A DNA stretch of 64,000 nt from Eledone cirrhosa (lineage: Eukaryota): NCBI GenBank assembly GCA_964016885.1, contig OZ024745.1, positions 60,884,001 to 60,948,000 of the forward strand. The letters run 5' to 3'. Positions within the stretch are counted from its first letter, which is position 1; each line of letters starts with the position of its first letter. Both the position numbers and the translations under genes were made by a program. Below the pieces are notes generated by a model. It saw only the letters and a list, made by a program, of their open reading frames with translations. It ran no database searches and had not been told where the DNA came from. Below are positions 39,399 through 63,635 of this stretch, in pieces.

Positions 39399-39435
39399 AT
39401 TTTCTGATGAAAGACTGATGTCTGAAACATAAAGA
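39399..39435 (+). ncRNA. Degenerate minimal hammerhead motif
   Basis: ttt-CTGATGA-aaga ctgatg tct-GAAAC-AT-A-aag; probably a CpG-decayed GAAACGUA form. Confidence 0.45.
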
Positions 39436-42952: not shown

Positions 42953-44735
42953 TTTCAGAATTCGATGACTGTTGTTCGACACATGGGAAAGCCATCTTAT
43001 TTCATCACGGTAACAACTAACTCTAACTGGGATGAAATAAAAGATAGTTTGCACCCTGGTGAAGAACCTAGAGACCATCCTGATATTTGTGCAAGAGTCT
43101 TCAAGATCAAGTATGACAGCCACATGGATGACATACTGAAAAAAATGTCCTAAGAAAAGTTGTGGCTCATTCTGCTACAATAGAGTGGCAGAAACGAGGC
43201 CTCACTCATGCTCATATTCTGCTGATAATGGCTGAAGATTGCAAGCCCAAAACTGCTGATGCCATTGATCAGGTAGTGTATCTTGAGATTCCTGATAAAG
43301 AGACCAATCCAATCCTGCAACATTCATGGCCCATGTGGACAAACTAATATGATGTGCTCATGTATGAAATGCCATTGATCAAAAAGTTATCCCAAGGCAT
43401 TCAGACAAACCACATTTGTTGCCGAAAATTCCTTTCCAGAGTATAGAAGAAGGGATAGACAGCATGGTGGTCACATCCATACAATCCAACTTAAAGGTCA
43501 AGAATTTACTGTTGATAATCGTTGGATTATTCCATACAACCCTTTCCTCTCATTGAGATATCAGTGCCACATCAATTGTGAGGTTGTCCACAGTGTCAAG
43601 GCTAAGTACTTTTATAAGTACATCACAAAAGGATCAGACAAGATCACTTTCAATATTAAGGATGATCAAGGAAATTGTGTCCATGCCCAAAATGAGATTG
43701 AGACCTATATCAATGTACGGTACATCTCAGCCAGTGAAGCATTCTGGAGAATCTATAAATTTCCATTACATCATCGAAAACTGCCAGTTGAAAAGTTGCC
43801 TTTCCATTTACCTGGGGAACAAATGGTCGTGTATGAGTGAGGGCAGGAAGAAAGTGCTGTTTCTAGGGGACAGCCAATGACTAAGTTAACGGAATATTTT
43901 CAACTGAATATTAGAGACCCACTGGCACAAAACATATTGTATATTGATATTCCTAAATATTTCACTTGGATAAACAAAAAGTGGCAAAGAAGAAAAAAGA
44001 TACATCTGGATGGTGATCAACAATCTATGAGTGAATCTCTTGGACGCATTCCAGCAGTATCTCTCAGTAGACATCAATCTGAATTATATTACCTCAGGAT
44101 GATCCTACATCACAAGGCTAGGTAAACTTCATACAAAGATTTGTGGACAATTGAAGGAGTTGAATTTCCAGCATTCCAAGAAGCATGCAGGAAACTTGGT
44201 CTGTTAGATGAAGATGGAGATAAAGACAAAGCTATGGAAGAGGCCTCATCCATTACGCTTGGTCTTCAGCTGCGACAGATCTTCTGCACCAATTTTATTG
44301 TACTGCATGCCAAATGACCCTCTGCAGTTCTGGGAGAAATGGAAGAATTGTCTTGCAGAGGATATCATGCATGAACGTCATGAGCAAGTCATGTCCATGC
44401 AAACCGTGCAGATTGTTCTACAGAAGATCCAACAAAGACTTCAACATGATGGCTTGGACATTCATGCCAACTATAGACTTCCTCGGCCAGACCTAACTAT
44501 TGTTGCCATACCAGAAATCAACAGGGTTCTTATGGCAGAAACTGATTTCAATACATACCAACTGCAAGCAAACATAAATGAACTTTTGCCAACATTGAAT
44601 TCTGAGCAACTGGTTATTTTTCACAAAGTAATCACTTCTGTAAATGAAAATGAAGGCAGAATTTTCTGCTTGAATGCAAGTGCAGGTACAGGAAAGACCT
44701 ATGTCATAAACATCCTATTGGATTACCTCCTTTCA
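42953..44735 (+). mobile_element. Helitron Rep-helicase pseudogene fragment
   Basis: GKPSYFITVTTNSNWDEI...PDICARVF (Rep motif I), EWQKRGLTHAHILL (HUH), KYFYKYITKGSD (catalytic Tyr), RYISASEAFWRI, ELYYLRMILHH, and PIF1-like Walker A ASAGTGKT; multiple stops and frameshifts. Confidence 0.93.
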
Positions 44736-45569
44736 GGCAGTTTTCTGCTAGCATATGTAGTGTGCATATTGGTATTATACACAAATATATATGCACTAGG
44801 TATATGTAAATTGAAAAGTAAATGACAATATCTTCTTCACCCACTTATTTCTGAGAGGGTCATGGGGGCAGAGTCCTTCTCAAACACTCCTTCCAGCGAG
44901 TCTGTCAAGAGCAAACATCTCTGATCCAGCTGGATCCCAAAGCGTGATCAGCCAAACTCATGGATGTTATCCAACTATGTTTCTCAGAGTCTACCTCTGG
45001 GTCTCTTGCCGGTTGGTTTTGCCTGTAAAATTTGTCCAGCGATTCTTTACGGAGACATTCTAAGCACATGCTCATAATATCAGAGTTGTAATCTCTCAAT
45101 TCGGAGAAGTAGCGGCTCTACCAGGAGTGACATCTAGTCTCTGAGCTATGCACTTTGAGTAACGTTACTCCAAAGACCCTTCGGAAAAACCCCATTTCTG
45201 CCGCTTTTATTTGCAATTGTATTCTTTTGGTAATTACTCAAGATTCATGATCCTCGGTAAGAGTTGGCAGGAATACCAGGAAGACAGTGAGTTTGGCTTT
45301 TACACCTACCCCTTTCTTCTGATTGCTGAGGCTGGCACATTACTGCATCAGCTTTTGCAATTCTTGCACTTAATTCAGCCTCCTGCATTCCATCACTCAT
45401 GAGCATGACCCCAAGATACTTGAACTTCTCTAACTGCTTCAGTAGAACTCCATTCACATGTATATAAATTTGAGGGATACACTCATATATATGTCTCTAA
45501 GTTAAAACAGTCACACACACACACACACCCCTCTAATTTAAGAACGCCAATAAACTCACGCGCGTGCAC

Positions 45570-50347: not shown

Positions 50348-51712
50348 CTGGTGTAATAGATGATAAAGAAATGGATGAAAACAGCAGACAAAGAACAGGT
50401 GAATTATCAGTTTGTAAACAACCAAATATTTAAACTGTTCAACTTTAGAAAGCTCTAGTACTTCCTATATTTCAAGCACTTGATATTTTTGTGGGCCTCC
50501 TAAGCCATTCTGTGCAGCATTTTGAAAGAATCAGATATTTCCAACAAAATTTAAATTTTTATTAATATGTTTTTGTCTCTCTCTTATTATTTCAATTTAA
50601 ATCATAAGATGAACGTATTTTAAATAGCAAAGAATAAAAGAAAATTCAACGAAATAATCCACACTGACGGACAGCCAGAATTAAAAACTTAGTAGATTGT
50701 AAGGGCCAATAACAAAATGCTTTCCTACATCAAGCAGTCATAACAAAGTCATTAAAATGTAAATAGCTTTCAAATTGTTTTTCGTTTTCTTTTAGTTAAT
50801 ATATAGTAATTAGATTTTTTATTAAATACTGTAGACTTTAATTTTTTATGGTTTCTTGACTGCAGCCTTATATTACAAGTAACTTAATGCGGCCTTTCAA
50901 CATAAAAAGGCTCCCCACCACCTCTGATGTAGACCATTCCCATCCCGAGAATTTCAGGGGTCTTTTTACTACATTAAAAAAATCAATGATTTACACATTT
51001 TTATGCCTAGTATTGTCATATGTCACAAAGGCAGGAAGACGGGTGATTAAAGGAAAAATAAACAAAAGTCGAAATAATTTAAAGGAGATAACAGTTCTCC
51101 CCTCTCCTGTTTGCCAGAGTTGTTTCCCTTATAAAGGCAGCATGCTGAAAAGCATGATTAGAATCAGCGAGAACACCACTTGATATTAAACCACATGAAA
51201 CCAGCTCTGGTTCTACGATACAAAGCTTTTTTTATTTAAGATATTTATATTTATGTCCCAAATACCAGGTATATAATAGGAAAGTTATATAAATATATTA
51301 AATTCTTGATTATTTTGTAAATAATATATAAATAACATTACAAATTGCTCACAATTCTTTTAGAATAAAAATATAAACACAAATTGTTTGTAAATTGTTT
51401 CAAAATAATAAACACTTCGTTAGAAATATAATAACTGTTTCTACTTTTGGCACAAGGCCAGCGATTTCTCAGTACATTACTGGTACTCTATTTTATCAAC
51501 CCCGTAAGGATGAAAGGCAAAGTGAACCTCGGCGTTAGAAATATAATAACGAAAGTATTAATGCACCGGAAATGATATTAACCGACCACATAATCACACA
51601 CACGCACTATATATATATATGCGTGTGTGTTTAGTGGTAGCTATGATGCTTCCATTGGCGGTATGCCAGTTGAGCACTCTATGTTCTTACAGAGCAAAGT
51701 GCGATATAATAA

Positions 51713-51968
51713 AAAACGAAAAATCAGTGATGCATCTGGACTCAATTTATTGTGTGTTACAATTGTTTCGCCGGCAGACAGCTCGAGACACGATCATTGT
51801 ATGGATCTGTCTGAGAAAATTTGTTCCGAAATTATTCGAAGTGTCCGACGAACCTGCAGTTCTAGAATCAGACAGATCCATACAATGATCGTGTCTCGAG
51901 CTGTCTGCTGGCGAAACAATTGTAACACACAATAAATTGAATCCAGATGCATCACTGATTTTTCGTTT
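51713..51968. repeat. Fold-back insert beside (TA)n carrying a hammerhead-shaped motif in both arms
   Basis: Arms of about 100 bp (51713-51814 and 51868-51968) are near-perfect reverse complements with a spacer of about 53 nt. Confidence 0.92.
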
Positions 51969-52019
51969 TATATATATATATTTAACGAAAGGTAAGTATT
52001 AAAAGAAATTGTTAAATGG

Positions 52020-53665
52020 ATTAATAATAATAATAATGAAATTATTGTGTACAGTGCTCAGGTGCACTACAACTCATCAAAGGTGCATGTATAGTACATA
52101 GAATAATGTACAAATGTCAGGAAAATGAACAGTGTACGAGTCATGATATAATAATAACAATAATGAAATATTGTGTACAGTGCCCAGGTGCACCACAACT
52201 CATCAAAAAAGTGCATGTACAGTACATAGGGCAATGCACAAACATCAGTAAAATGAATAGTGCACGAGTCATGATACACACGTGTGCATGTGCATGGAAG
52301 GGGTACATCAGGTGTAGCCTTGGCGTATTTCGGGGAGCATGAGTGTCTTAAAGGATGCAGTGTCTCGGCAGCTAACAACTGACGCAGGCAGTTTGTTCCA
52401 TGCTTCAGCAACTCTGAGCGTGAAAAAATGTCTACGAAAGTCATGGGAGCTGTGCTGTTTTCTGATCTTGTAGGCATGTCCACGTGTGTTAGACACATGG
52501 AGATCAAAGAGGCGCTCAGGGTTGCAATTGGCGAGATGGTTAAAAACTTTGTGGGTATTCACCAAGTCCATTGCCAGACGTCGGAGCTTCAATGAATCCA
52601 TGCCCAGGGAAGCAAGGCGTTCAGAGTATGGTAGGTGTCTGATGGAGGGTATGCGCTTGGTTGCACGTCTCTGAACAGTTTCCAGGAGGTCAATGTTCTG
52701 AGCAAGATAGGGGTTCCAGACTGATGATGCGAATTCCAAGTGTGGTCGTACCATAGCTGTATACAGTTTTAAATAGATGGCTGGAGAGTGGCTAACAAAA
52801 GTCTTGCTGAGTGATGCCAAGACACCCTCGGCCTTCTTGACAATCTTAGAGACATGCTTTGTCCAACGCAAATCGTTGCTGACAGTAATGCCCAGGTCAC
52901 GTTCACAAGAGGACTTTTTGATATCAGTATTGTGGAGGGAGTATGTGGACGCTGGATTTTTCCTTCCAAAATGCATGGTGGTACACTTGTCCACAGCCAG
53001 CTTCAGTTGCCAGTCTGTGATCCATTGCTGCATTGTGTCCAGGTCTGATTGTAGGAAAGAGTTGTAAATTTCAGGATCAGTCCTTTTGATTTCAAGGTAC
53101 AGCTTGATGTCATCTGCATATTTTAGTACCGTGGCATTCTGTAAGTTGGCATCTATGTCGTTAATATATGCCACAAACAAAAGAGGACCAAGAACAGATC
53201 CCTGTGGTACACCAGATGACATCTCATATGGTGAAGAATGCTGTCCTAGAACCGTGACTACTTCTTTTCGGCTGAGAATGAAGGATTTCAACCAGTCGAA
53301 AAGACCATCCCTCACACCCATTGCAGAGAGTTTTGCCATAAGTCTTTTGTGTGGCACAGAATTAAAAGCCTTAGCAAAGTCAAGATAAACAACATCCACC
53401 AATGAGCCGCTGTCAGTGATCCGGGTGATGTCCTCAAGGAACTCGATAAGCTGATCACAGCAGCTGGAGTTAGGGATAAATCCAAACTGTGAGGGCCGGA
53501 TGAGGCTGTGAGAGCTCCAGAAGTTCCAAAGTGTTTCTCTGACACAGGATTCCATCAGTTTGGCCATACAGCTAGTAAGACTGACTGGACGATAGTTGAC
53601 AGGTGACATGCGGTTGCCCTTTTTGAACAGGGGAATGACACTGGCAGTTTTCCACTGCTCGGTTA
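52020..53665 (-). mobile_element. 5'-truncated CR1-like LINE with an uninterrupted RT ORF (52308..53681, 457 aa)
   Basis: WKTASVIPLFKKG, NYRPVSLTS, QFGF, YLDFAKAF, GVPQGSVLGP, YADD, ERDLG, VRPHLEFASSVWNP, TRGH; 3'UTR with an internal duplication and an (ATT)n tail. Confidence 0.95.
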
Positions 53666-55335
53666 TTAGATGAAATAACAATAATAATAAGAATAAATGT
53701 AATAACGAGAATATAAAGAATAAATGATTTGGTTTATATATGGTTTACTTCACGTGAATCAATTAAAAAGTACATATAAAACAGTTACCAAGAGTTGTTG
53801 ATGTGAAAACAGTGAGCGAACAGATAATGTTGTTGTTGTTATTTGGAGTCCGTGGTAGTAATTCTGAGACCGTAGTGAGTAAGAGAGAGTAATGATTTGT
53901 ATACCTCTGAATGGTCTGTAATTGGTTGTAGACCACTGTGGCTTGTACATGGTCTGTAGTAGCAGGGCTCCAATCTCTGTGTGTGTATCTGTAGACCTCA
54001 TGGGGTCTGTTGATAGTGGTGAATCCTTACATAGTTAGTTGCTAGCGTAATGTTCCGATGTCTCTGGCTTTTCTGTAGACCTCTGGGGTCTGAAGTTAGC
54101 GGTTAATTTTTACATAGTTAGTTGTGTATCCTATCGCTCCGATGTCTCTGTCTTTAAAGTGGGAAATTATAGGCCTTATATAGCTATCGCTTTCTGTCTC
54201 CCACCTTGAGGGGATAGCCAACGCATCAACCTGTCTACACCAAAAGGGTGTTGACCTAGAATTTAACCTTTAGCTATCACCCAAAGTTCAAGGCGCGGAC
54301 AGATTTCGCTACACACACACACACACACACACACACGAGATATACTGAGAACTGCAGATGCTGTGAGGTTGGTGATGTTATTGGTAGTGGTAATGGTGGG
54401 AACAAATGTCGCAGTGACGATGACAACGTCATATCTGCTGTTGATGACTTTTTTTGACAAACAGGACGAAAGTTTTTTTCACCAATGGGATCCAAGCACT
54501 GCAACACAAGGGGACTGTTGAAAAATAAATAGTCTGGTCATATTCCATGAGAATATCTTGGTCAAATTATGATTATTATAACTAACTTATTATTGGGACA
54601 CCTATGATGCCTATTACTTTTTTTTTTTTTTTCATTTAGCTCTCTTTTAAGCCATAATCTAATGCATCTATAATATTCCTTTGTGATTTTTTTCTGTCAT
54701 TTGTGTGTGTTGTACACTGTCTTGTTCACCAATTCTTAATTATTTCTGTGTCTCTATCTGGCCTTTCTTTATCTAATTATATTCCCTGATGGAATTACTC
54801 TCTTCCCATTCAAAGGAGGTAAATCCATCATCTAGGATGTGATATGCTGTGACACATTCACTGCCTCTTAGTTGCTTTGGCCACAAACCCAGGTACCACA
54901 GCCCATAATGCAGAGGACAGGAAGACAAGCAAATGCCGGGGCTTGTCTGCCTAGTTGCTTCCTTTGTGCACTGGTCGTTGTCAAGACCTCAGGCATCCCC
55001 AGACTCCATATAGCTGACATCCTCTGTAAAATTGGAACATCAGGAGTCCCATGAGTTAGGATAGCTATTGCAGGAGGTGTTGCTGGTCATTTTCTGCAGA
55101 AATGCCTTTGCCATTTTGTTCACGAAGCAGGTGCAGCTGAAACACTGCTCTGACCTAAGTGTAGAGTCTGTCGCTCTCTCCCCTTTCTTTCTTCATTTAT
55201 CTACCAACCCTCGTTCTTCCCCTCCCTTTCCTATCATTTATGGCAGTAATTATCCTTTCCGATACTGCTTTATGATTCTGTATTTTTGTTATATCAATAC
55301 ATTTATTCCGTATCTACTTAGAACATAAAAGATTA

Positions 55336-63300: not shown

Positions 63301-63635
63301 TACTCTCGGGTCCCAAATAATAGGGGAGTATTGGAAAATCGGTAATTTTTCTAAGTTATCTCCATTAAATTTCTTTAGAAACCAGAATTAGTCGTTCAGT
63401 TTACATATTAAGACCCCAACCCATCCTATTTATTATATAATGTATGAGATTTCTAGTAATATTCTTTTTTTGTTATGTATATAGTTTTGTAATGTATAAA
63501 GAAAATTAATTGTTGCAGGAATGCTACCACTTAAAATAAAATTTCGCTGAAGATAGATTAGCAAAATGGGGTGGGTTGGAAAAATCTGAAAAATTTAATA
63601 TGTAGGGGAAGATGATTATTTGAGACCCGTGTGTA
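63301..63635. mobile_element. Tc1/mariner-type (TA) MITE
   Basis: Imperfect TIRs tactctcgggtcccaaataat / attatttgagacccgtgtgta; partial copies at 22120-22195 and 47925-48063. Confidence 0.65.

What the first reader, a model, noticed from the sequence alone, without database searches (positions are those of the whole stretch)
51891..51928. Hammerhead-shaped RNA fold with a shortened CUCGA core, recurring in unrelated inserts
Seen: gtgt-CTCGA-gctg tctgc tggc-GAAA-C AATT GT-A-acac, which gives stem I (gtgt/acac), a 4-bp stem II, GAAA, a palindromic stem III and a GUA site. The opposite arm (51751-51790, minus) has the same motif with G-C in place of a G-U pair. A divergent insert at 6033-6078 (minus) reads ggatacgt-CTCGA-ttct acgaaac agag-GAAA-ATT-GTA-atatgtcc, with different stems and the same CTCGA. 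Weaker echoes are at 9517-9560(-) (CTCAA...GAAA TGATCA) and 10140-10175(-) (gtCTCGAg...gcGAAA). Known: canonical hammerheads need C3U4G5A6N7G8A9, and PLE hammerheads are minimal type-I with a palindromic stem III. Inference: the same 2-nt-shorter core across different stems suggests a conserved variant, either a new self-cleaving subtype or a non-catalytic fold recognised by PLE RT, rather than random decay.
Basis: partly seen in the sequence, partly recalled or inferred. Interest (0 to 1): 0.78.

Follow-up and report, generated by a model that had tools for sequence, protein, structure and literature searches.

The report
Hammerhead look-alike inside an abundant retroelement
The hammerhead-looking stretch is a conserved piece of a very abundant short mobile element, likely a passenger of Penelope-like retroelements; it lacks the ribozyme's catalytic core and shows no structure-preserving changes, so it is likely not self-cleaving.

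Summary
The letters are as described at 51891-51928(+), with a twin at 51754-51791(-). The twin is not independent. The site is an inverted dimer of one ~260-nt unit (5' part, 106-nt arm, optional ~85-100-nt tail) lying in a (TA)n microsatellite. The family has thousands of copies in this 3.0-Gb genome. CTCGAG is the family state: 3325 exact matches, against 6 unrelated matches with CTGANGA. No Rfam hammerhead model matches it. In 81 arms the proposed stems break one-sidedly (pair 2-37 holds in 47 of 80) and only one cell shows a two-sided change. A fold of this shape with any 5-nt core turns up about once per 64 kb in surrogate sequence.

The "unrelated" insert at 6033-6078 belongs to a related family (about 67% identity). 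Its motif straddles the joint between two inverted monomers, so it is a chimera. That family is the 3' end of a ~4.7-kb element with an RT-like and a GIY-YIG-like ORF (likely Penelope-like). It shows 5' truncation, inverted copies and (TA)n targeting.

Real hammerheads with an intact core occur in other repeats of this genome and this window.

Verdict: ordinary.

The parts
51626..51708 (-). 3' tail of the left monomer (sense strand is minus). (TG)n/(TA)n lies beyond it at about 51609-51625.
   Evidence: Conserved next to the arm in the copies aligned. Tail contiguous with the arm in 21 of 50 loci. Absent from other monomers.
51709..51814 (-). 106-nt arm of the left, tail-bearing monomer
   Evidence: Inverted repeat found. 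Piece map 'tail- arm- loop+ arm+' for L001, which is the window copy.
51754..51791 (-). Hammerhead-like 38-mer in the left monomer
   Evidence: Descriptor hit. Sequence GTGTCTCGAGCTGTCTGCCGGCGAAACAATTGTAACAC.
51815..51867 (+). 5' part of the right monomer. This is the 'loop' of the apparent foldback.
   Evidence: It stands directly 5' of the arm in plain monomers such as L114, L120, L122, L124, L129 and L130.
51868..51973 (+). 106-nt arm of the right, tail-less monomer, ending in (TA)n at about 51968-51983
51891..51928 (+). The finding: the hammerhead-like 38-mer in the right monomer
   Evidence: No Rfam hammerhead match.
6053..6289 (+). Unit of the related second family, arm plus tail, sense on plus, ending ...CACCAATT before (AT)n
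   Evidence: About 67% identity to the 51.6-kb element.
6120..6165 (+). True homologue of the 38-mer block in the second family (GATCGTTCCTCGAGCGACCAGCTCGAGGAACAATTGTAATATGTCC). Here CTCGAG can pair with a second CTCGAG downstream.
   Evidence: Family 1/2 alignment.
5990..6052 (-). Inverted, tail-less partial monomer of the second family, abutting the (TA)n array at 5800-5989
   Evidence: (window 5986-6053 matches query positions 99-167 in reverse).
6033..6078 (-). It is a chimera across the joint of the two inverted monomers.
   Evidence: Most copies of this family (27 of the 30 aligned, by my reading) continue differently after the position equal to 6052: (TA)n, a longer element, or inverted copies joined at other points.

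Best explanation
The 38-nt stretch is a conserved sequence block inside a ~260-nt repeat unit, present in thousands of copies, that is likely a non-autonomous passenger of Penelope-like retroelements and is likely not a ribozyme.

Shown. The unit is linear: a 53-nt 5' part, a 106-nt arm holding the block, and an optional ~85-100-nt 3' tail. It occurs alone and as head-to-head inverted dimers with variable joints. The window copy is such a dimer in a (TA)n microsatellite, which is why the block appears on both strands. A related family (about 67% identity) forms the 3' end of a ~4.7-kb element with RT-like and GIY-YIG-like coding sequence. The block carries CUCGA(G) where a hammerhead needs CUGANGA. 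Its proposed stems decay one-sidedly.

Inferred. The units would be copied in trans by the RT/endonuclease of the long elements through target-primed reverse transcription at (TA)n. Priming on both DNA strands, or snap-back, would give the inverted dimers. Two alternative RT start sites would give the tailed and tail-less ends. The likeness to a hammerhead (GAAAC-AAUU-GUA) would be either chance or a remnant with no catalytic role.
For: Repeat family. 2437 first-look candidates; all 40 scored places matched, nearly all full-length (36 of 40 cover the query to within about 5 nt of each end), at 84-100% identity on the better strand. 3325 exact motif matches, with 0 for the reversed-pattern control.

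Linear unit and dimers. Of 20 loci taken as pattern singletons, 7 are plain monomers, 11 are inverted dimers or snap-backs with different joints, and 2 showed a single arm without the 5' part. Among the 30 best copies, the 5' part is continuous with the tail-less monomer in 19, with the tailed monomer in 10, and was not detected in 1. (TA)4 or longer lies within 60 nt on at least one side in 29 of 30 copies and on both sides in 17 of 30.

Second family. One constant end lies next to (TA)n and the other end is variable. Eight of 30 copies run on into a longer element, truncated at different points. About 8-10 of 30 carry inverted partial copies.

Single locus L134. In order: an inverted partial unit, RT-like matches to P0004 (62-72% identity), linker plus GIY-YIG-like matches (85% to P0001), a 3' region 88% identical to L069, the family-2 unit, then (TA)n.

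Not a hammerhead. No hammerhead match in Rfam at gathering score in the window, nor at E<=10 around the site, nor at E<=5 in 17 related loci totalling 69 kb, nor at E<=10 in L134. Covariation is absent. Alifold across both families gives -3.35 kcal/mol and no such fold.

Contrast. The same genome has RF00163 matches above the cut-off, 18 of 74 scored candidates. All 12 copies I read have CUGAUGA intact.

Literature, passages read. PLE insertions have a tail at one end, inverted 5'-truncated copies and a (TA)n bias (PMC8557442). C3G or G8C kills a PLE hammerhead, cleavage is not needed for insertion in vitro, and both DNA strands are cleaved and extended (PMC11167929).
Against: The Penelope-like label is not proven.
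- Pfam gave no RVT_1 hit on the 750-, 718- and 627-aa ORFs.
- The GIY-YIG hits are below Pfam's cut-off, 19.4 and 19.5 bits against 22.6, and came from 2 of 114 ORF pieces.
- PDB sequence search found nothing significant, and a search among longer proteins found nothing.
- RT identity therefore rests on motifs I read in P0004 (DIDSYY, YRDD) and on Atlas feature scores of 0.96 to clusters carrying HTH_animal and RVT_1. These are leads, not proofs.

The tail is about 85-100 nt, not the published 30-40 nt. Family 1 is tied to the long element only through its ~67% homology to family 2.

The core columns (CTCGA and GAAA) are somewhat better kept than the arm average, 98.9% against 93.7% in 30 copies, and CTCGAG and CAATTG persist in both families. 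Some sequence-level constraint is therefore not excluded.

The 3' 100 nt show a weak, non-significant collinear likeness to a true hammerhead family: 2 to 58 of 500 shuffles reach the score, depending on the copy, and shared (TA)n inflates it.
Confidence: 0.78

Rival explanations
1. The block is a remnant of a Penelope-type hammerhead that lost its CUGANGA box. It is kept as a sequence or protein-binding element in the 3' region that the element's RT or endonuclease needs in cis.
For: It lies in the 3' region of an RT plus GIY-YIG-like element, where PLE hammerheads are reported (PMC4209133 and PMC8557442, passages read). Its 3' half, CGAAAC-AAUU-GUA, closely resembles CGAAAC-AUU-GUC of true hammerheads in this genome. 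In tail-less monomers it lies at a similar distance from the 3' end, about 50 nt, by my reading. CTCGAG and GAAACAATTGTAA persist across two families that are about 67% identical. Core columns are 98.9% conserved against 93.7% for the arm.
Against: There is no significant homology between the true-hammerhead family and this one (29 against 22.4 +/- 3.5, and 23 against 23.6; weak, inflated by shared (TA)n). No intermediate with CUGANGA was found among the 6 genome matches. The copies used for conservation were chosen by likeness to the window copy or by the motif itself, which biases those figures.
Confidence: 0.12
2. It is a new self-cleaving hammerhead subtype with a core two nucleotides shorter.
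For: GAAA, a short palindromic helix III and a GUA site are present. The CTCGAG state is the family consensus and not decay.
Against: The equivalents of G5 and A6 are missing. From recalled mutational work, core positions are essential; in passages read, single C3G or G8C changes abolish a PLE hammerhead (PMC11167929). There is no covariation. The G10.1-C11.1 equivalent is unpaired in 18 of 80 arms, and stem I pair 2 in 33 of 80. The isolated RNA does not adopt the fold. In family 2 the CUCGAG can pair with a second CUCGAG or CCCGAG instead. No Rfam match.
Confidence: 0.03
3. It is a foldback or MITE-type DNA transposon with long terminal inverted repeats that targets TA.
For: 106-nt arms that are 97% complementary, flanked by (TA)n, and a discrete length in the best 40 copies.
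Against: The tail sits on one side only. Plain monomers without any inverted partner exist, 7 of 20. Dimer joints vary. The related family shows one constant end and graded truncation of the other end, running into an RT-like/GIY-YIG-like element. That is the pattern of reverse transcription.
Confidence: 0.03
4. The inverted dimer acts as a long-hairpin RNA gene, a source of small RNAs, and the arm-to-arm complementarity is kept by selection.
For: Predicted hairpin of -211 kcal/mol, z -26. 21 of 106 arm-to-arm pairs show two-sided changes, and 0 of 500 shuffles reach this.
Against: Both arms are copies of one template made at insertion. That gives the same counts without selection, since monomers and dimers with variable joints coexist. 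There are no RNA data.
Confidence: 0.04

Closest known systems
Minimal type-I hammerhead ribozymes of Penelope-like elements (Cervera and de la Pena 2014, PMC4209133; Rfam RF00163)
   Same: GAAA box followed by a 1-2 bp helix III with a small palindromic loop and a GUH site. A short helix I and a 4-bp helix II can be drawn. It lies in the 3' region of a likely PLE-type element.
   Different: It has CUCGA(G) instead of CUGANGA. There is no covariation, and the closing pair of helix II is not kept. No Rfam score. True members in the same genome keep the full core.
Penelope-like elements with a C-terminal GIY-YIG endonuclease and a cysteine-rich linker (Neptune-like), and their insertion signatures (Craig et al. 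2021, PMC8557442; Frangieh et al. 2024, PMC11167929)
   Same: RT-like then GIY-YIG-like order. A C-x-C...C...C linker stands before the GIY-YIG part. (TA)n targets, 5' truncation, an inverted partial copy upstream, and an optional tail at one end.
   Different: No canonical hammerhead was found in the element, although the paper states that canonical HHRs are universal in C-terminal-EN clades. The tail is ~85-100 nt, not 30-40. Pfam does not confirm the RT, and GIY-YIG is below threshold.
Animal non-LTR retrozymes as non-autonomous PLE derivatives (bioRxiv 10.64898/2026.07.22.740005; abstract only seen)
   Same: Short non-coding units related to PLE terminal regions, in high copy number.
   Different: Retrozymes are tandem units with active hammerheads. 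These units are monomers or inverted dimers without a hammerhead core.
Foldback elements and MITEs
   Same: Long inverted arms, small size, TA-rich targets.
   Different: Here the inverted arms are two separately truncated copies of a linear unit. They are not terminal repeats of one element.

Membership tests
Hammerhead ribozyme (type I, PLE minimal form) | Conserved box C3-U4-G5-A6-N7-G8-A9 | tested here: not met
   The block reads CUCGA(G). CTCGAG is found in 71 of 81 arms and none has CTGANGA. Genome-wide there are 3325 matches with CTCGAG, against 6 unrelated ones with CTGANGA.
Hammerhead ribozyme (type I, PLE minimal form) | G12-A13-A14 box, A15.1-U16.1, and an H17 cleavage site | tested here: met
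   GAAAC in 75 of 81 arms. The A-U pair holds in 80 of 80 (79 A-U, 1 G-U). GUA follows.
Hammerhead ribozyme (type I, PLE minimal form) | Helices I and II supported by covariation, with a conserved G10.1-C11.1 pair | tested here: not met
   0 of 10 pairs have two-sided changes in 30 copies. In 81 arms there is 1 such cell. The closing pair holds in 62 of 80 arms, and stem I pair 2 in 47 of 80.
Hammerhead ribozyme (type I, PLE minimal form) | Match to a curated covariance model | tested here: not met
   No hammerhead family at gathering score in the window, nor at E<=10 in 51600-52100.
Hammerhead ribozyme (type I, PLE minimal form) | Site-specific self-cleavage | not testable with these tools
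   It needs an in vitro transcription and cleavage assay or RNA end mapping. No RNA run was listed.
Penelope-like retroelement (parent of the short units) | RT and GIY-YIG endonuclease in one element | tested here: inconclusive
   L134 holds RT-like and GIY-YIG-like matches in that order on one strand. P0003 joins an RT-thumb-like part and a GIY-YIG-like part in one 627-aa frame. However, Pfam RVT_1 does not hit and GIY-YIG scores 19.5 bits, below the cut-off of 22.6. Atlas scores of 0.96 are leads.
Penelope-like retroelement (parent of the short units) | Insertion signatures: 5' truncation, adjacent inverted 5'-truncated copy, optional tail at one end, microsatellite target | tested here: met
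   The tail is longer than the published 30-40 bp.
Penelope-like retroelement (parent of the short units) | Pseudo-LTRs from partial tandem copies that carry a hammerhead | tested here: not met
   No tandem arrangement was seen in the loci read. No hammerhead was found inside the element. Only decayed copies were examined.
MITE or foldback DNA transposon | Terminal inverted repeats at both ends of every copy | tested here: not met
   7 of 20 loci are monomers without an inverted partner, and the tail sits on one side only.

The most novel reading that the evidence does not exclude
A lineage of endonuclease-bearing Penelope-like elements gave up hammerhead catalysis. It kept the GAAAC-AAUU-GUA half together with a new palindromic CUCGAG box, as a cis signal used by its RT/endonuclease and by thousands of short passenger units. 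That would be a ribozyme turned into a protein handle.
Probability: 0.1. Interest if true: 0.55.

Novelty: new member of a known kind. Interest (0 to 1): 0.2.

Why it matters
The finding would have mattered as a new class of self-cleaving RNA. The evidence does not support that. What remains is an annotation: a very abundant short retroelement family, likely moved by Penelope-like elements, which forms inverted dimers in (TA)n microsatellites. Its parent-type element seems to lack the canonical hammerhead that C-terminal-endonuclease PLEs are reported always to have. That is of modest interest to people who curate PLEs. The case is also a caution: a half-hammerhead shape appears about once per 64 kb by chance, and the two arms of an inverted repeat are not independent observations.

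Tried and rejected
- RNA evidence: no RNA holder was listed for window 51625-51965, so no reads were laid.
- Earlier notes of this scan: none for this genome.
- The neighbouring ORF at 52308-53744(-) is a LINE-type RT (RVT_1 E 1.6e-36; best PDB relatives are R2 and LINE-1 ORF2). Its flank is not shared by other copies of the repeat, so it is not the partner.
- A search for relatives of the GIY-YIG-like ORF among longer proteins found nothing.
- Pfam on the long ORFs gave no family. A PDB sequence search with P0004 gave nothing significant.
- The family-1 copy in L093 lies 1.5 kb downstream of a GIY-YIG-like ORF, but microsatellite separates them. I did not count it as one element.
- The two canonical-core motifs flanking the L134 element belong to two different families (compare), so they are not pseudo-LTR partners.
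- A first reading, that the long hairpin out-competes the small fold, was dropped as the main argument once monomers were found. It holds only for transcripts that span a dimer.
- Homology between the true-hammerhead repeat and this family was tested twice and is not significant.

Full report
**1. What is at the site**

It lies in the right arm of an inverted repeat. The arms are 51709-51814 and 51868-51973, each 106 nt, 97% complementary, with 53 nt between them. The 'opposite arm' copy of the motif is at 51754-51791(-). It is simply the other half of this repeat, and the G-C versus G-U difference is one arm-to-arm mismatch.

Rfam finds only a tRNA in the whole window at gathering score. In 51600-52100 at E<=10 it finds no hammerhead, only weak generic hairpin hits.

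**2. It is a high-copy repeat**

The window is C5:60884001-60948000 of a genome of 2,995,841,428 bases in 1796 contigs. The 265-bp stretch has 2437 first-look candidates. All 40 scored places matched, nearly all over the full length, at 84-100% identity on the better strand.

Alignments show a further ~85-100 nt conserved on one side only, the 'tail', at window ~51626-51708. (TG)n and (TA)n lie beyond it, and (TA)n lies on the other side. (TA)4 or longer is within 60 nt on at least one side in 29 of 30 copies and on both sides in 17 of 30.

**3. CTCGAG is the family state**

An exact pattern CTCGAG-N6-30-GAAACAATTGTAAC has 3325 matches in the genome (1659 forward, 1666 reverse). The reversed-pattern control has 0. 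The same pattern with CTGANGA has 6 matches, none with the family's intervening sequence.

**4. The fold is not supported**

- *30 aligned copies.* The ten proposed pairs show no pair with changes on both sides. Percent paired is 90.6, against a shuffle mean of 90.7, with 406 of 500 shuffles as high.
- *81 sense arms from 49 loci.* Stem I pair 2-37 pairs in 47 of 80 arms (31 are C.A). Pair 1-38 pairs in 68 of 80. The helix II closing pair pairs in 62 of 80 (12 are G.G). Pair 13-19 pairs in 67 of 81. Only one cell in all has a two-sided change. These loci were chosen by likeness to the window copy (30) or by the exact motif in one arm (20). That choice favours the core, not the stems.
- *Isolated 38-mers.* They do not fold into the drawn shape, and their energies are ordinary (z -0.89 and +0.16). 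The three other sites give z -0.28, +0.92 and -0.89.
- *Chance.* A descriptor of the same shape with any 5-nt core gives 6 hits in the window: the two arms, three overlapping hits in a TA run, and one other. Sixty Markov surrogates gave 0.98 +/- 0.97.

**5. The 'foldback' is an inverted dimer of a linear unit**

The arm-to-arm helix shows strong two-sided changes: 21 of 106 pairs and 74 cells, with 0 of 500 shuffles reaching this, and slid controls 31-40% paired. At first this looked like a selected hairpin.

I then fetched 20 loci taken from the start of the pattern list because they lacked a partner hit nearby. They showed otherwise:
- Seven are plain monomers. L114, L120 and L126 have 5' part, arm and tail. 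L122, L124, L129 and L130 have 5' part and arm without the tail.
- Eleven are inverted dimers or snap-backs joined at different points, with tails on one side, both sides or neither.
- Two (L116, L133) showed one arm without the 5' part.

The 53-nt 'loop' is therefore the 5' part of whichever monomer reaches further. Among the 30 best copies it is continuous with the tail-less monomer in 19, with the tailed one in 10, and was not detected in 1. The two arms covary because both were copied from one template at insertion.

In the window, the tailed monomer is on the minus strand (51626-51814). The longer, tail-less monomer is on the plus strand (51815-51973).

**6. The second insert is related, and its 'hammerhead' is a chimera**

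Window ~6000-6300 aligns with the 51.6-kb element at about 67%. The local score is 134, against 23.5 +/- 3.9 for shuffles. It belongs to a second family with 2421 first-look candidates.

In that family one end is constant (...CACCAATT, then (TA)n). The other end varies. Some copies stop and meet (TA)n or unrelated DNA. About 8-10 of 30 are joined to an inverted partial copy at differing points. Eight of 30 continue into a longer element, and those are truncated at different 5' points. That is the pattern of reverse transcription from a fixed 3' end.

In the window, the unit is 6053-6289(+) and an inverted tail-less partial monomer is 5990-6052(-). Its CTCGA half is the antisense of one monomer's 5' end. 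Its GAAA-ATT-GTA half is the sense of the other monomer.

The true homologue of the block is at 6120-6165(+). There CTCGAG can pair with a second CTCGAG downstream. Alifold over both families gives -3.35 kcal/mol and no hammerhead-like fold.

**7. The parent is likely a Penelope-like element**

Long copies of family 2 share about 2.7 kb. They begin with an ORF (P0001) that gives weak GIY-YIG hits in two copies: 19.4 and 19.5 bits, below the cut-off of 22.6, from 2 of 114 ORF pieces. Its Atlas score is 0.96 to GIY-YIG-named clusters.

P0001 has 59,603 first-look candidates in the genome. A related 627-aa frame (P0003) joins an RT-thumb-like part, a cysteine-rich linker and the GIY-YIG-like part. 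A 750-aa frame (P0004) shows DIDSYY and YRDD, with Atlas scores of 0.96 to clusters carrying HTH_animal and RVT_1.

One locus, L134, shows the whole layout on one strand:
1. an inverted partial unit;
2. RT-like matches;
3. linker plus GIY-YIG-like matches;
4. a 3' region 88% identical to L069;
5. the family-2 unit;
6. (TA)n.

Against this label: Pfam gave no RVT_1 on the long ORFs, and searches of PDB sequences and of longer proteins found nothing.

Passages read in PMC8557442 describe (TA)n bias, a tail at one end and inverted 5'-truncated copies as PLE signatures. Passages read in PMC11167929 report the following:
- internal RT start sites that define the tail;
- cleavage and extension of both DNA strands;
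- loss of hammerhead activity with C3G or G8C;
- insertion in vitro without ribozyme cleavage.

The tail here is longer than the published 30-40 bp.

**8. Real hammerheads are present elsewhere**

RF00163 scores above its cut-off at 18 of 74 scored candidates in this genome. The 12 copies I read have the form ATTGCC-CTGATGA-GTCC-TAAATA-GGAC-GAAAC-ATT-GTC-GGCTAAT, about 50 nt from a 3' end. In 6 of the 12 that end abuts (TA)n, and in the other 6 the repeat runs on. This repeat also shows 5' truncation and inverted copies.

My canonical-core scan (CTGANGA, helix II of at least 3 bp, GAAA) finds 62 hits in about 366 kb of fetched loci. Going by the 14 hits listed per group, none lies inside a family 1 or 2 unit. 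It finds 5 hits in the window (763-803-, 1371-1417+, 39404-39427+, and two overlapping at 63547+), against 0.38 +/- 0.63 in surrogates.

The 4.7-kb element itself has no such motif and no Rfam hammerhead at E<=10. Nor do 17 related loci totalling 69 kb at E<=5.

The likeness of the block to these true hammerheads is limited to CGAAAC-A(A)UU-GU and a weak collinear resemblance further 3'. That resemblance is not significant.

**9. Verdict**

The site is an inverted dimer of a short retroelement unit that is likely PLE-dependent. The block is most likely non-catalytic. I give about 0.12 to the idea that it is a hammerhead remnant kept as a cis signal, and about 0.03 to a new ribozyme subtype.

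The mechanism of mobilisation is inferred from sequence patterns and from the cited papers, not shown. It comprises trans copying by the PLE enzyme, two-strand priming or snap-back for the dimers, and two RT start sites for the tailed and tail-less ends.

Whether this family is already in print was not settled. Two literature searches turned up no paper on it among the titles and abstracts listed. The supplements of PMC8557442 were not opened.

Noticed in passing
window 763-803(-), 1371-1417(+), 39404-39427(+): Motifs with an intact CUGAUGA...GAAA hammerhead core and a paired helix II. They belong to repeat families seen in many other loci of the genome. The scan found 5 hits in the window, counting two overlapping ones at 63547(+), against 0.38 expected in surrogates. 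Rfam's gathering score is not reached.
   Followed up: partly
window about 9640-9810(-): Another element with the same layout, a long near-perfect hairpin (TAGGAACGAGTAGGACCCCGACGGCTGAGCTCAAGCCGTTTCGACG...) plus a one-sided ~75-nt tail, flanked by (TA)n. The same tail sequence stands beside family-1 copies in L006 and L019. Probably another inverted-dimer family.
   Followed up: no
window 52308-53744(-) and 52022-52276: A 478-aa open frame with RVT_1 (E 1.6e-36) whose nearest solved relatives are R2 and LINE-1 ORF2, so a 5'-truncated LINE. Its 3' region holds a 128-bp unit repeated twice and ends at the same (TA)n that the dimer sits in.
   Followed up: partly
window 44208-44825(+): An open frame with a PIF1-like helicase hit (E 3.6e-08), possibly a Helitron remnant.
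   Followed up: no
window 51891-51928 and its family: The 38-mer holds three palindromic hexamers: CTCGAG, GCCGGC (GCTGGC in this arm) and CAATTG. CTCGAG and CAATTG are kept in the second family. Their meaning is unknown, and this was noticed post hoc.
   Followed up: no
genome-wide (G000): The GIY-YIG-like ORF has 59,603 first-look candidates and the RT-thumb-like part has 35,603, so Penelope-like sequences make up a large share of this genome's repeats.
   Followed up: partly
window 12160-12233(+): A tRNA gene (Rfam RF00005, 70.8 bits).
   Followed up: no
L134 (G000:C12:21539500-21548500), sense positions 1674-1701 and 7976-8004: Two canonical-core hammerhead motifs of two different families flank the 4.7-kb RT/GIY-YIG-like element on its sense strand. 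They were judged to belong to neighbouring insertions.
   Followed up: partly
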